Assembly: GCA_964016885.1 (NCBI GenBank)
Contig: OZ024750.1
Coordinates: forward strand, 32,922,001-32,986,000
From: Eledone cirrhosa
Lineage: Eukaryota
Reading direction: 5' to 3'
DNA: 64,000 bases
Position numbers and translations under genes: made by a program
The notes under the pieces: model-generated
What the model saw: only the letters and a program-made list of their open reading frames with translations
Database searches by the model: none
Told to the model about the DNA's origin: nothing
In this document: positions 406-53,978 of the stretch, piece by piece
Layout: each line of letters begins with the position of its first letter
Position numbering within the stretch: position 1 is the first letter of the stretch

Positions 406-808
406 TAAGAAGAAATTAAAAGATGGTTAAAAAACTTCCATGTATTTTATTATGTGCATTTCAAAAACAAATATCATCCTGGGACGATATTTGCGTTCTC
501 ATCCGATAAAATAGGGAGACATGATATGATGCCTAAAAAACCCTTGTGAATAAGGTAGTGTCTAGTCAACATATGATAAATAAATTTAAAAGGATATAGA
601 AGATTGTCTCCCTATTTTATCTGATGAGAACGCAAATATCGTCCCAGGATGATATTTGTTTTTGAAATGCATATAATAAAATACATGGAACTTTTTTAAC
701 CATCTTATAATTTCTTCTTATATATACTCCAGTCCAATAAACTGTTGAGTGCTACTTATCCAATATTTGCATTGCTTTATTGTTCTACAATAAAACTCAC
801 CTCCTACA
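406..808 (+). mobile_element. Fold-back PLE-type pLTR insert in (TA)n: inverted arms 406-521/605-720 plus unique tail
   Basis: Arms of about 116 bp are reverse complements with few mismatches, (TA)n lies on both sides, the arm contains a hammerhead, and the tail carries the bulged hairpin at 726-750. Confidence 0.8.
613..683 (+). ncRNA. Type I hammerhead ribozyme (minimal helix III)
   Basis: Stem I TATTTTAT/ATAAAATA; core CTGATGA; stem II CAAATATCGTC/GATGATATTTG; GAAA-TGCATA-T-A. The mirror copy on the minus strand (about 443-513) has a mutated core, CGGATGA. Confidence 0.8.
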
Positions 809-1374
809 CATATATATATATATATATATATATATATATATATATATATATATATAAATATATATATATATATATATATATATATATATATATAGAAAGT
901 GAGGTTTTTTTTACAAATTGAAAAATAACCGAGGTGTCCAGTTGCATTTTCGATTTCATCTTTTTTTCTTTATATATATAACACATGCTAGCATGGAAGA
1001 TGGACGTTAAATGAAGATGATAATGATGATGACACTCTATATAACTATCTGTCTGTCAGTCAATTTATCTTTCTGTATATACAGACACACACATATATAG
1101 GGGGGGGGGGGGGGCAGGCGTCTGTGTGGGCGTACGTGTGTATTATATATGCATCCTACATAAATTTACTATGTTTACCGAATAAGATATATACACAACT
1201 TCTGATAAAACATTTATTTATTTATGTATGTATGATTGTTTTTAGGTGTGTGTACATATGCATATTTGTAAGGATGCATGTATGTAAGAAGGTGTGCATG
1301 TATATATGCGGATGCATTTAGGTGTATTTTCATGATGTGAATATAATAATATATTTATAATTGTTTACATATGA

Positions 1375-2362
1375 ATATATATTTATATATATATATATAT
1401 ATATTTATATATATATATATTTATATATATATATATATTTATATATATATATTTATATATATATATATATATATTTATATATATATATATATATTTATAT
1501 ATATATTTATATATATATATATATTTATATATATATATATTTATATATATATATATATTTATATATATATTTATATATATATATATTTATATATATATAT
1601 ATATATTTATATATATATATTTATATATATATATATTTATATATATATATTTATATATATATATATTTATATATATTTATATATATATATATATATATTT
1701 ATATATATATACATATATTTATATATATATATATTTATATATATATATATATTTATATATATATATATATATTTATATATATATATATATATTTATATAT
1801 ATATATATATTTATATATATATATATTTATATATATATATATATATTTATATATATATTTATATATATATATATTTATATATATATTTATATATATATAT
1901 ATATTTATATATATATATATATATTTATATATATATATATTTATATATATATATATTTATATATATATATATATATATTTATATATATATATATTTATAT
2001 ATATATATATATATTTATATATATATATATATTTATATATATATATATATATTTATATATATATATATATATTTATATATATATATATATATATATATAT
2101 ATATATTTATATATATATATTTATATATATATATATTTATATATATCTATATATTTATATATATATATATATGTATATATTTATATATATATATATTTAT
2201 ATATATATTTATATATATATATATTTATATATATATATATATATATATTTATATATTTATATATATATATATATATATATTTATATATATATATATATAT
2301 ATATATATATATATATATATATTTATATATATATATATATATATATTTATATATATATATAT
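1375..2362. repeat. About 1 kb imperfect (TA)n microsatellite
   Basis: Read directly; source of the IY-repeat ORFs. Confidence 0.98.
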
Positions 2363-2393
2363 TAGAATAAATGCTCTGAAATAGCGATATATA

Positions 2394-2750
2394 TGTGAGT
2401 ATAGACATAGAATATTCGAAAATATTCTGTATGTTTATAATAAACATTTTGAAGACCTAATCGCTATAGAATAGAATACGTCACGTATTACAATTAGATT
2501 CTCTTTCAAACCAGTTCCAGTACACAGCTAAGTATTCTATAAGTCTCTAGCTGTGTCATTCTCGATAAAAGCACTGGATATGTAGTCCTGATGAATTCTA
2601 ACAAGAATGAAACGCGTAGATTACTTCCCTTGCTTTTATCGAGAATCTAATTGTAATACGTGACGTATTCTATTCTATAGCGATTAGGTCTTCAAAATGT
2701 TTATTATAAACATACAGAATATTTTCGAATATTCTATGTCTATACTCACA
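2394..2750 (+). mobile_element. Fold-back insert in (TA)n: arms 2394-2503/2641-2750 with a hammerhead in the spacer
   Basis: 110-bp inverted arms; the same peptide [20 protein letters not shown] appears in the ORF track on both strands. Confidence 0.85.
2582..2624 (+). ncRNA. Minimal type I hammerhead ribozyme, PLE-type
   Basis: GTAGTC-CTGATGA-ATTCT(AACA)AGAAT-GAAA-CGCG-T-A-GATTAC; the palindromic CGCG loop 3 is typical of PLE hammerheads. Confidence 0.9.
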
Positions 2751-3116
2751 TATATATATATATATATATATTTATATATTTATATATATATTTATATATA
2801 TATATATTTATATATATATATATATATATTTATATATTTATATATTTATATATATATATATATTTATATATATATATATATATATTTATATATTTATATA
2901 TATATATATATATTTATATATATATATATATTTATATATTTATATATATATATATATATATTTATATATATATATATTTATATATTTATATATATATATA
3001 TATATATATATTTATATATATATATATTTATATATTTATATATATATATATATATATATATATATATATATATATATATATATATATATATGATATGTTA
3101 AGTATTTCCAAAGAGC

Positions 3117-3303
3117 TATTTAATTAGAAAGTAAACAACATAATATAACTAATCCATTACCAAAGGTTTCAGGACCCTAGACAGTATTAACATATGTCTA
3201 GTTCATCTGCTGAACGATCTAGACATATGTTAATATTGTCTAGAGTCCTGAAACCTTTGGTAATGGATTAGTTATATTATGTTGTTTACTTTCTAATTAA
3301 ATA
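3117..3303. mobile_element. Fold-back insert between (TA)n tracts: arms 3117-3201/3219-3303
   Basis: 85-bp inverted arms. Each arm carries a hammerhead-like 3' half (GAAAC-CTTTG-GTA) but there is no CTGANGA. Confidence 0.75.
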
Positions 3304-51352: not shown

Positions 51353-51830
51353 TATGTATATATACCTTTAATATATCTATATAGCCGTTAATGTGCATAA
51401 GGAAAGTATATACTTTCAGACGTTCAACCATCTGGCAAGAAGGTATACGATGCTGACGATAGCTAATAAGCTTTAAACTAGTACATCGTTCCTGTGTCAG
51501 TGTTGAACAAAAAGGTGACGTGGTTGTCTAAACACTGTACGGCGTAATTCGGGCTGTTTGTTTGTTTACAAACAAACCGAACATTATAATAGGTGTTCGG
51601 TAAACCGATACGTGCATATATATATATATATGTGTGCATGTATGTATATATATACATACTACTGTACGTCTGTATACATATATGTATGTACGTATACATA
51701 CATACTTACATTTATAAGTGCCGTACTAAGAGGGAGAAATGAAATTTCGTTTCATTCTATTCCATTTATATATATATATATGTGTGTGTGTGTATATATT
51801 TATATATATATGTATATATATATATATATA

Positions 51831-52027
51831 TAACGAAGGAGTTGTGGTAAGGAGCCAGGTGGACCATAACGCACCAGAGTACTCAATACTTAGGGTAGTA
51901 GAGTGGGTAATAGGAAAATGTATGACCCCGACGGCAGAGCTCAAGCCGTTTCGACGGCTATTTCTAGTCCAGAAATAGCCCTTCGAAAGGGCTTGAGCTC
52001 TGCCGTTGGGGTCATAGATTTTCCTAT
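51831..52027 (-). mobile_element. Fold-back family of 36613, copy 2
   Basis: Arms 51910-51965/51971-52027; tail hairpin 51881-51904 (minus). Confidence 0.88.
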
Positions 52028-52949
52028 ATATATATATGTATACCGTATGTGTATATGTAGAAATATAAGTAAGCTCTTTTACGTACATATTTGAAGGTAT
52101 TGACCTAGTTTGTCAATTGTATTGTTAGTCATCACATGTTTACATACTACAGTGTGTTATAGATTTTCTGTAAGGTTTCACGCAATATCAGCTCTACTAT
52201 TCTACTGGCAGACGAAGAAAGCTAGCTACAATTAAAGTCTGAACAGACTTCCTGGAAGCAATTCTTCCACATTTATCAAAGTTGATTAAAAACAGGGATT
52301 TTTGTTATTTACTGTTAGTTAAATTTTCTGTGAAACGTTTCTTCCATTTTAGTTAGCACAGATGCAATAGACATACATACACACATACATACACACATAC
52401 ACATACACACATACACACATACATTCGAACATTTCCACTCCCACACAAACTCTCACACGTATGCCCATATGATATATATGTTACCACATATGGTGAAAAC
52501 AGCTTGTATAATAACTTCACTCACAACCCCCCCCCCTACACACACACACACATGTGGTGGATGAAAGTTCATCACTGAATTAAAGTGTTCATCTGTTTCT
52601 TAAAGATCTTACTGTGAAGTCGTATGGCTTACGGGTTAGTGTTTCCAGCTGATGATCGTAAGATGGGAAGTTCAATTGCCGGCCGTGGGTTGCTTCGTAA
52701 ATGTGAGCGAAAGAGAGATTTGAAGGGCTTGGTCTGGAGAGTGATTAGTTATGGGGCACTCTGTGTATTCTACTTTTTTTCTTGTGTATGAGGTGGGCCC
52801 CAAACCAGATGTGTATCGGACCCCTAAGATCTAAATCCAACCGTGGATACGAGAGCGAAACAACAAAATAAAACTAGCAGATATTTTGGTGGATATATAT
52901 ACGAAACACGAAAGTAATGTTATAGCATACTGTAGCAGTAGCCTCCCTT

Positions 52950-53135
52950 GTTGTGACTCACAACCCCAATAGATTAACATCTAGACGGGAAGTAGAACCC
53001 TTTCTGTAACTTCCGGCAGAGCCCTATAAAACGAATAGCTTTCGGCTCTCTCCCTCTCACTGGCCCTTCCGGCGCCTGGCCTTCGCCAGGCGTCTTCTGC
53101 CAGCCGCTTTTGCCTGGCAATCAAAACGGTAACTA
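52950..53135 (+). promoter_or_regulatory. Candidate Pol II promoter and first non-coding exon
   Basis: TGACTCA, GGAAGT and CTTCCGG motifs, CTATAAAA at about 53024, a pyrimidine tract 25-30 nt downstream, a local CpG rise and a donor-like CG|GTAACT at about 53128. Confidence 0.4.
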
Positions 53136-53782
53136 CTAACTTTGCTTCATTCTTTCGTTTATTCATTGACATGTCAACTATACTGTTAAATTGTTGATTA
53201 AATATTATACACACAAACCATGTCTCCTTGTTACATTCATACACCGCTAGTTCTTCGCTATAATACATTACAGGAAATCCACCATAAACGAAAGCATAGA
53301 CATTTGGAGAAGACATCAAATTGGTTGTAAAATAAAATAACTTTCCTGATAACTGAAATGTTGAAGTGTATCAGAAAGAACAAACTTTTTCGGCTATTTC
53401 CGTAAAACATTAATAGTTTTACAATGACAATTCTACAATATGACTTTTATCTTAGATATTGTAACTTAATTAATATAATGTTTTATTTCCTGTCTAGATT
53501 TAAAAGCATATATACACATATACACACACACATATGCTTACATACACATGTACACACACAGGCTTACACACATACCCTCACGCACATGCTCGTTCTCTCT
53601 CTCCCCCACACACACAAGCAACCCTCCAATATCTATATCTATCTATCTATCTGTCTATCTGTCTATCTATCTGTCTATCTATCTGTCTATCTACCTGTCT
53701 ATCTATCTGTCTATCTATCTATCTATCTATCTATCTATCTATCTATCTATCTATCTATCTATCTATCTATATATATATATAT

Positions 53783-53978
53783 ATAACAAAGGAATTGAGG
53801 TAAGGAACCAGATGGACCATAACGCACCAGAATACTCAATACTTAGGGTAGTAGAGTGGGAAATAGGAAAAAGTATGACCCCGACGGCAGATCTCAAGCC
53901 GTTTCGACGGCTATTTCAGTCCAGAAATAGCCGTCGAAACGGTTTGAACTCTGCCGTCGGGGTCATACTTTTTCCTTT
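53783..53978 (-). mobile_element. Fold-back family of 36613, copy 3
   Basis: Same palindrome and tail; hairpin 53834-53857 (minus). Confidence 0.88.

What the first reader, a model, noticed from the sequence alone, without database searches (positions are those of the whole stretch)
726..53857. Covarying bulged hairpin (RCTC-stem-loop-stem'-YY-GAGY) shared by the tails of unrelated microsatellite-inserted elements
Seen: 726 ACTC-CAGT-ccaataa-ACTG-TT-GAGT; 17424 CACTC-TAcTC-tgat-GAaTA-TC-GAGTG; 35245 GCTC-TGTC-ctca-GACA-TT-GAGC; 36734 ACTC-TACT-actcta-AGTA-TT-GAGT (same family on the minus strand at 51881 and 53834); 48347 ACTC-TAC-taat-GTA-CT-GAGT; 49445 ACTC-TAC-tgt-GTA-TT-GAGT. These eight sites come from about five families with no other evident similarity. 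The upper stem changes completely but stays paired, the outer pair covaries (A-U/G-C), and a 2-pyrimidine 3' bulge is invariant. The motif always lies about 35-65 nt before the terminal microsatellite and, in fold-backs, about 4-16 nt after the point where the inverted copy ends. Known: PLE pseudo-LTRs often have a non-duplicated 3' tail. Inference: this is a conserved RNA handle for PLE reverse transcriptase that fixes an internal initiation site just upstream. I do not know of it being described.
Basis: partly seen in the sequence, partly recalled or inferred. Interest (0 to 1): 0.92.

Follow-up and report, generated by a model that had tools for sequence, protein, structure and literature searches.

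The report
Paired RNA handles of Hydra retrotransposons
A small bulged RNA hairpin, apparently undescribed, sits twice in front of the gene of one group of telomerase-related jumping genes from several marine animal phyla, each copy just beyond one of the two points where inserted copies end, so it probably tells the enzyme where to start copying and could explain the long-puzzling optional 'tail' of these elements.

Summary
All eight sites exist. In 380 kb of random genome, 16 of 20 motif hits lie 25-95 nt before a microsatellite (shuffles 0.3). The five families are not unrelated: all are Hydra-clade Penelope-like elements (PLEs).

Full-length copies carry the motif twice, about 60-90 nt apart, between the hammerhead and the start codon. 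Motif 2 was found in 4 of 5 window families and is degenerate in one. The pair recurs in metagenome Hydra loci and in a published sea-cucumber consensus.

Copy ends are fixed by the motifs: 70 of 72 unselected junctions lie within -10..+2 nt of motif 1 (tail-less end A) or motif 2 (tailed end B). The PLE 'tail' is therefore the spacer between two motif-marked ends. Of 61 fold-backs, 58 pair one A arm with one B arm.

In 19 position-anchored instances the first upper pair is always Watson-Crick, and only in the 2-nt-bulge register. The bulge is U-(U/C/A), not strictly YY. Neptune, Naiad and Chlamys sequences examined lack the motif.

Best reading (0.7, inferred): an RT-docking RNA handle that sets internal priming on a short UA patch just upstream. 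No binding or RNA data.

The parts
726..750 (+). Motif 1 of family F5 (Hydra PLE)
   Evidence: master copies with motif 2 and Hydra ORF
621..667 (+). Hammerhead core (CTGATGA..GAAA) of F5, same strand as the motif
400..812 (.). F5 fold-back insertion in (TA)n: inverted arm ending at site A (about 400), forward arm ending at site B (about 808-812)
17425..17448 (+). Motif 1 of family F6 (Hydra PLE); this copy has a short deletion in the tail
   Evidence: masters with motif 2 and ORF
17198..17484 (.). F6 fold-back: inverted arm ending at A, forward arm ending at B (read by eye; not scored by the pair script)
17597..17644 (-).
35245..35266 (+). Motif 1 of family F7 (young Hydra PLE, copies 100% identical)
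35148..35178 (+). Hammerhead core of F7 (inverted twin at 34800-34830, -)
34738..35334 (.). F7 fold-back, A arm + B arm
36734..36757 (+). Motif 1 of family F1 (Hydra PLE); fold-back 36613-36805, A + B
51881..51904 (-). Motif 1 of F1; fold-back 51827-52027, B + A
53834..53857 (-). Motif 1 of F1; fold-back 53780-53976, B + A
48347..48366 (+). Motif 1 of family F2 (older Hydra PLE; motif 2 degenerate); fold-back 48209-48398, A + B
49445..49463 (+). Motif 1 of F2, 5'-truncated tailed copy
50756..50855 (+). Hammerhead core (50756-50797) and 3' end of a tail-less copy of family F3, which stops a few nt before the place where other F3 copies carry the motif

Best explanation
The motif is a cis-acting RNA handle of Hydra-clade PLEs: 5'-(UA-rich patch)-R-Y-U-C-[1 or more bp, variable hairpin]-U-H-G-A-R-Y-(R-C-U), present twice between the hammerhead and the start codon. 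SHOWN (sequence): two copies per master; inserted copies end just 5' of copy 1 (A, no tail) or copy 2 (B, tail = motif 1 plus spacer); both ends fall in a short TA/UA patch; fold-backs join one A arm and one B arm head to head. INFERRED: the RT-endonuclease binds each motif; the endonuclease nicks (TA)n; the freed 3' end pairs with the UA patch 0-10 nt upstream of the motif and primes reverse transcription internally, so the motif that sets a start is never copied. The template must carry the motifs downstream of what is copied (tandem read-through or circular RNA). MORE SPECULATIVE (about 0.5): two enzymes, one per motif, prime from nicks on opposite target strands in one event; the two cDNAs join at their truncated ends and give the inverted structure with a tail on one side only.
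For: Ends: 70 of 72 junctions into simple repeats in loci not chosen on that family's tail lie within -10..+2 of motif 1 (27) or motif 2 (43) (F1 and F10 supply 66 of the 72). Second motif predicted from F7, then found in F5, F1 (58, 63), F6 (61, 67); the searches asked only for R-Y-T-C or RCTC/GCTC after the tail, and the bulge, 3' strand and ORF came unasked. Found with no motif in the query in F10 and in 8 of 8 metagenome Hydra families whose sequence upstream of the start codon was held: two motifs in L180, L182, L183, L184, L186, L192, one in L188 and L191. A tailed metagenome copy (L193) ends about 6 nt before the motif-2 position of its family. Published consensi (PMC8557442 File S7, read by eye): clear motif in 3 of 6, with two motifs at the 5' end of Hydra-1_Ajap. 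Covariation in 19 position-anchored instances: first upper pair 19 of 19 Watson-Crick (CG 15, TA 4; shuffle p 0.0003), second 15 of 18 (shuffle mean 7.2); the pair forms in 0 of 19 with a 0- or 1-nt bulge; outer pair GC 24, AT 8, AC 1 of 33. Fold-backs AB 58, BB 3, AA 0; without F1, 11 of 11 unselected pairs are AB (p 0.0003) and 22 of 25 tail-selected pairs have an A partner (p 5e-7). Some B arms stop at the 3' foot of motif 1 (F10 6 of 18, F1 2 of 31, F5 1 of 3). PAc initiates internally at the two tail-defining sites, needs RNA downstream of them, and cleaves and extends both strands (PMC11167929). Spacer between the stem strands varies from 6 to 35 nt, which fits a folded single strand rather than a duplex site.
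Against: No binding, initiation or expression data for any Hydra element. The antisense strand pairs about as well (19 of 19 and 14 of 18), so RNA versus cDNA is not settled by sequence. F2 has no intact motif 2 in 3 ORF-linked or junction copies read, though it makes tailed copies (ragged B ends). 2 of 6 published consensi show no clear motif and 1 is degenerate. B ends could be inherited by priming in read-through (UA)n, so B copies are not independent evidence of motif-2 use. F1 fold-backs share nearly the same junction (24 of the 58 AB pairs) and may descend from few events. PAc showed no strand difference in start site and primed without target homology, unlike the UA-patch and one-site-per-strand steps. 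Stops at the foot of motif 1 may be plain hairpin stalling, and arms under 30 nt were not detectable. Two F10 copies that begin at B end at A, not the B-to-B unit a precise circle would give; F1, F6 and F10 lack a canonical hammerhead core. In one whole-region fold (F7) motif 2 was not in the minimum-energy structure and the region was no more stable than shuffles (z -0.94). Shuffle p-values ignore kinship.
Confidence: 0.7

Rival explanations
1. The motif is read in DNA (cDNA hairpin or duplex) by the GIY-YIG endonuclease, which resolves a longer intermediate by cutting at the TA patches at A and B.
For: PMC8557442 ascribes the tail to endonuclease-mediated resolution. PMC11167929 reports that the D. 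virilis endonuclease needed the tail in plasmid DNA (second-hand). The patches at A and B resemble the (TA)n target. Antisense pairing is about as good as sense.
Against: Variable 6-35 nt spacer; non-Watson-Crick pairs at the second upper position are G.U 5 versus A.C 0 on the sense strand in 41 instances (partly biased by the scan); UUCG and GUAA loops on the sense strand (RNA tetraloop status recalled); PAc start sites match the tail ends in vitro.
Confidence: 0.12
2. The motif directs cleavage or 3'-end formation of the RNA just upstream of itself (ribozyme part or protein-assisted cut), and ordinary end-primed reverse transcription starts at those RNA ends.
For: Ends are sharp. 11 of 17 mapped 5' ends of F10 copies that run into the ORF lie between motif 1 and the end of motif 2.
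Against: Those 5' ends spread over 50 nt (+54 to +103) and are not fixed at B (+86). The motif is 17-25 nt with a free upper arm and matches no Rfam family. PAc starts internally on uncut RNA.
Confidence: 0.08
3. The motif is a promoter or translational-operator element of the 5' leader; copy ends lie beside it because the leader is AT-rich, and inverted arms arise by self-priming on antisense RNA.
For: The last motif lies 17-65 nt before the ATG in 9 of 10 families measured (99 nt in L191). PMC3846280 proposes antisense self-priming for head-to-head inversions. F10 5' ends cluster in the leader.
Against: It does not explain why ends keep within 10 nt of each of two motifs whose spacing varies from 59 to 92 nt, why other AT-rich places are not used (2 of 72), or why fold-backs are A+B. 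A side role in translation is compatible with the best explanation.
Confidence: 0.06
4. Conserved by descent without function, or chance.
For: All carriers are one clade.
Against: Flanks and upper arms share no sequence while pairs and register are kept across hosts at about 40% protein identity; 16 versus 0.3 in shuffles.
Confidence: 0.02

Closest known systems
Hydra clade of C-terminal EN+ PLEs (Craig et al. 2021, PMC8557442; passages of main text and supplement parts 1, 2, 52, 53 read)
   Same: The carriers are members: RxRW, DKT, CxCx5C linker, (TA)n targets, hammerhead in the pLTR, tandem and inverted copies.
   Different: The main text has 0 occurrences of 'hairpin' and the passages read describe no RNA element besides the hammerhead, though the motif is in its consensi. 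Tails here are about 60-90 nt, not 30-40. Units are 3.3-5.1 kb, against 'generally <3 kb'.
PAc (Poseidon) internal initiation (Frangieh et al. 2024, PMC11167929; parts 1-2 of 4 read; GenBank supplement and figure images not readable)
   Same: Two internal start sites bound the tail; RNA downstream of the start is required; both strands are cut and extended; a binding motif is hypothesised.
   Different: Other clade; the motif was not identified ('bulge' 0, 'Hydra' 0 occurrences); PAc starts inside an AC-rich stem-loop without target homology, whereas Hydra ends lie in a UA patch 5' of the hairpin. Whether PAc has this motif could not be checked.
PLE tail on one inverted pLTR (Arkhipova et al. 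2013, PMC3846280; passages read)
   Same: The one-sided tail of inverted copies is described, which is the A+B pattern in qualitative form.
   Different: No structural cause given ('hairpin' 0 occurrences); inversion ascribed to antisense self-priming.
3' stem-loops of L2/CR1/RTE LINEs and the R2 3' UTR (recalled; R2 paper PMC11194090 seen as listing only)
   Same: Small RNA structure recognised by the element's RT to select the template.
   Different: Those lie 5' of the start site and are copied; this one lies 3' of the start, is doubled, and is not copied by the event it would direct.
L1 twin priming; hepadnaviral epsilon; telomerase RNA handles (all recalled, not tested)
   Same: Two primers from opposite nicks give head-to-head inversions; bulged hairpins position an RT.
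   Different: L1's second primer anneals at variable sites, here both are fixed; epsilon templates from its own bulge with protein priming; no sequence likeness is claimed.

Membership tests
Hydra-clade PLE | RW motif in the N-terminal domain and DKT in place of DKG | tested here: met
   RxRW and SDKT in F1, F2, F5, F6, F7, F10; definition, where it is written RWK
Hydra-clade PLE | C-terminal GIY-YIG endonuclease with CxCx5C linker, CxxC and CxH, no CCHH | tested here: met
   F7, F10, F1; not seen for F2, F5, F6, whose fetched stretches end before it
Hydra-clade PLE | Insertion into (TA)n | tested here: met
   some F2, F5, F6 copies end in (CA)n or (CT)n
Hydra-clade PLE | Canonical hammerhead in the pLTR | tested here: inconclusive
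   Core present in F5, F7 and F2; degenerate or absent in F1, F6, F10
Hydra-clade PLE | Groups with named Hydra proteins in an RT tree | not tested
   The tree held 14 candidate rows and one Neptune-like row (long branch); no published Hydra protein was included
   Absent at the ends and pLTR-ORF junction of the Neptune-like family and at one 3' end each of two other non-Hydra families. Of 22 hits of six core 8-mers in the PMC8557442 supplement, 18 in Naiad/Chlamys files are not in a motif and 4 of 4 in Hydra are. Consensi lacking the tail, or hits broken over lines, would be missed; Poseidon and Nematis consensi not examined.
Catalogued RNA family (Rfam 15) | Covariance-model match | tested here: not met
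   No match to the motif as such among 133 hits at E<=1; hits are microRNA models on AT repeats and fold-back arms
RT-binding cis element | Specific binding by the RT and control of the start site | not testable with these tools
   Needs in vitro assay
RT-binding cis element | Acts on the sense RNA strand | tested here: inconclusive
   Same strand as hammerhead and ORF; G.U versus A.C asymmetry weak

The most novel reading that the evidence does not exclude
Hydra PLEs integrate by programmed twin priming: one RNA carries two identical docking hairpins that load two RT-endonuclease molecules, which nick opposite strands of (TA)n and prime at two fixed internal sites. The tail is the spacer between the handles, the inverted pLTRs are the two cDNAs, and a 20-nt hairpin placed downstream of any UA patch would set where this telomerase-related enzyme starts copying.
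Probability: 0.4. Interest if true: 0.92.

Novelty: new variant of a known kind. Interest (0 to 1): 0.8.

Why it matters
How PLEs choose their template and why they carry an optional tail and inverted pLTRs are open questions (stated as such in PMC8557442 and PMC11167929). This gives a minimal, cross-phylum RNA element whose two positions predict both copy ends, with exact mutants to test. PLE RTs are the sister group of telomerase, so an RT-positioning hairpin bears on how internal templating arose. In practice the motif marks Hydra element boundaries and ties short microsatellite-flanked fold-backs, which look like MITEs, to their parent retrotransposons; tailed copies occur about once per 25 kb here (16 in 380 kb).

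Tried and rejected
Rfam scan: nothing relevant. Pfam found no family for the window's Neptune-like endonuclease fragment. MAFFT did not align the 5' strands across variable loops, so covariation was counted by register in a script; no covariance model or R-scape-type test was run. In that set the pattern fixed R-Y-T-C, the bulge letters, G-A-R-Y and a list of 3' triplets, and in 5 of 19 cases the 5' anchor was set by hand to the nearest GCTC; only the upper-stem pairs and register are free. Whole-region folds were no more stable than shuffles. The first F6 pattern found 0 matches because the window copy has a deletion. PAc supplement: one PDF gave only labels, the GenBank file is unreadable; it may bear on whether Poseidon has a like element. 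Precise circular B-to-B copying was not supported in 2 of 2 copies. 'F1 is a MITE' was rejected: it has a 784-codon Hydra frame and 3.5-kb tandem arrays. Eleven loci that duplicated the window or each other were dropped before the counts; one more duplicate (L106); one search used an end window of -14..+2 and one of -10..+2. Literature searches for a prior description found none; the library lacks most subscription papers, including older Penelope papers and Repbase reports. Earlier scan findings: nothing relevant.
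Full report
1. Observation. All eight sites are present, 35-64 nt before a microsatellite. The window lies in a 3.0-Gb genome (probably an octopus by recalled likeness, not tested). 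In 38 random 10-kb stretches the descriptor hit 20 times, 16 of them 25-95 nt before a microsatellite; 30 local shuffles gave 3.4 and 0.3 (maxima 7 and 1), and no-bulge, 3-nt-bulge and 5'-bulge versions gave 1, 0 and 1 such hits. These 16 hits belong to about five families. Relaxed scans added variants: GTTC..GAAC (second pair covaried), UA bulges and a 1-nt bulge. Rfam has no matching family.

2. What the elements are. Hammerhead cores lie on the same strand upstream of the 726 and 35245 sites. Following each window family to long copies gave a PLE frame for all five: F7/35245, F5/726 (48, 53), F1/36734, 51881, 53834 (58, 63), F6/17424 (61, 67) and F2/48347, 49445 (59, 67). All have RxRW and DKT, and the three read to the end have the CxCx5C linker and CxxC/CxH endonuclease. 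These are the marks of the Hydra clade (PMC8557442). So the families are kin, and the hairpin is a homologous element whose flanks have diverged beyond recognition.

3. The motif is doubled. In the full-length F7 copy the tail runs on into a second motif and then the ORF, while the 3' pLTR stops a few nt before motif 1. This predicted a second motif just past the tail end in other families. It was found in F5, F1 and F6; in F2 only a remnant is left. A protein-led search with no motif in the query gave family F10 with both motifs before the ATG. Of 19 metagenome loci, 8 families held sequence upstream of the start codon and all 8 had the motif: twice in six, once in two. One more (L189) has it in its 3' tail. 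The other loci were truncated or duplicates of these. In the six Hydra consensi published with PMC8557442, read by eye, it is clear in Hydra-2_Amil (coral), Hydra-2_Ajap and, twice at the 5' end, Hydra-1_Ajap (sea cucumber); degenerate in Hydra-1_Crog (copepod); not seen in Hydra-1_Amil and Hydra-1_Obim. Motif spacing is 59-92 nt and the last motif lies 17-65 nt before the ATG in 9 of 10 families.

4. Structure. Consensus: UA-rich patch, R-Y-U-C, variable hairpin, 2-nt 3' bulge U-(U/C/A), G-A-R-Y, mostly R-C-U. In 19 instances anchored by position and outer strands, with no pairing demanded above the bulge, the first upper pair is Watson-Crick in 19 of 19 (shuffle p 0.0003) and the second pairs in 15 of 18 (shuffle mean 7.2); the third and fourth are not above chance. 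The first pair forms in 0 of 19 if the bulge is 0 or 1 nt and in 5 of 19 if it is 3 nt. The outer pair is GC 24, AT 8, AC 1 and the second CG 31, TA 2 of 33. Kinship is not corrected for. The antisense strand pairs almost as well, so the strand is not proven; G.U pairs and UUCG/GUAA loops lean to sense RNA. Isolated motifs fold with high pair probability in most of 42 instances; in whole-region folds both motifs formed for L184 but only motif 1 for F7.

5. Ends. Against master junctions, copy ends fall on two points per family: F10 2 and 3 nt before motifs 1 and 2, F7 4 and 2 nt, F5 0 and 4-7 nt. In loci not chosen on that family's tail, 70 of 72 junctions into simple repeats lie within -10..+2 nt of motif 1 (27) or motif 2 (43). 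Each end sits in a short TA patch shared with the target. The window itself holds a tail-less F3 copy stopping just before the motif. The PLE tail is thus the stretch from end A to end B, and each end has a motif on its uncopied side.

6. Fold-backs. Of 61 head-to-head pairs, 58 join an A arm and a B arm, 3 are BB, none AA; independent arms would give 47% AB. F1 pairs (24) share nearly one junction and may not be independent; without them 11 of 11 unselected pairs are AB (p 0.0003) and 22 of 25 tail-selected pairs have an A partner (p 5e-7). A one-sided tail on inverted pLTRs is known qualitatively (PMC3846280; PMC8557442). Some B arms stop at the 3' foot of motif 1, and 11 of 17 mapped F10 copies running into the ORF begin between motif 1 and the end of motif 2. 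That fits obstruction by an occupied or folded motif, but also a nearby transcription start.

7. Scope. The abundant Neptune-like family of the window (3890-6042, minus) ends at one site in the 28 of 30 endonuclease-selected copies where the end region was read, and lacks the motif there and at its pLTR-ORF junction; two other non-Hydra families lack it at the one 3' end read for each; 18 core hits in Naiad and Chlamys consensi are not in motifs. The element looks Hydra-specific. Other clades may use other handles.

8. Mechanism. Best reading (0.7): an RNA docking site that places the RT so that a nicked (TA)n end pairs with the UA patch just upstream and primes internally. Shown: positions, covariation, end and arm statistics. 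Inferred: binding, priming, template form. The in vitro precedent is PAc, which starts at the two tail-defining sites, needs RNA downstream of them and extends both strands, but whose binding motif was only hypothesised, whose starts did not differ by strand and needed no homology (PMC11167929). The twin-priming extension is about even odds; the dimer test could not be run. Rivals: endonuclease resolution at a DNA form of the motif (0.12), RNA cleavage at A and B (0.08), promoter or operator only (0.06), no function (0.02). A strict hammerhead-circle model is weakened by degenerate cores in F1, F6, F10 and by two B-to-A copies.

9. Novelty. Seven literature searches and term look-ups in five papers found no description of this motif; subscription papers and Repbase notes were not searchable, and the abstract and opening of the 2026 retrozyme preprint do not mention it. 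The host clade, the tail and internal initiation are known; the doubled hairpin that predicts both tail ends and the A+B rule appear new. Verdict: real, a new variant of a known kind, interest 0.8.

Noticed in passing
window 2364-2757: Fold-back of another hammerhead family (weak Rfam HH9 hit, E 0.32) with one tail-less arm and one arm with a 30-nt tail that begins with a minimal GCT..GAGC-A hairpin; relatives in L034, L093, L095, L125. Clade unknown; may be a reduced handle.
   Followed up: partly
window 3890-6042 (-); L081-L084: Very abundant Neptune-like PLE (150 of 150 scored hits at 94% identity or more); has ACTC-TCCT-GAGC about 65 nt before its end and a GCTC about 10 nt past the end in master junctions, but not the bulged motif.
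   Followed up: partly
PMC8557442 File S2: Hammerhead stem III of 5 Hydra families is ACTC-N-GAGT, the same strands as the motif's lower stem; not so in this genome's families. Coincidence or common origin untested.
   Followed up: no
motif 3' flank, many loci: GAGY is often followed by ACTC(T), giving the palindrome GAGTACTC in some F1 copies; could allow RNA-RNA pairing between molecules.
   Followed up: no
G000:C1:437200349-437210965; L231: Family F1 forms head-to-tail arrays of 3531-bp units with an intact Hydra frame and no canonical hammerhead.
   Followed up: partly
L145-L147: F7 has no ATG near motif 2; the frame is open through the tail and motif 2, so the start codon is unclear. Unit about 5.1 kb with long untranslated parts.
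   Followed up: no
L150-L179: F10 hammerhead core reads CAGAAGA in the copies that hold it, so it is probably inactive, yet the family is abundant with many intact frames.
   Followed up: no
window 38220-38385, 40150-40330 (-), 41915-42130, 51050-51300: Further hammerhead-like or fold-back elements without the motif in the window copy; a relative of the first (L034) continues into a degenerate version of it.
   Followed up: no
window 19915-21075 (-): Fragment of a LINE-type frame with a weak zf-RVT match (E 9e-6, below cut-off).
   Followed up: no
window 13942-14130 and about 11 other places: A 185-nt dispersed repeat family, 80-95% identical, unrelated to the motif.
   Followed up: no
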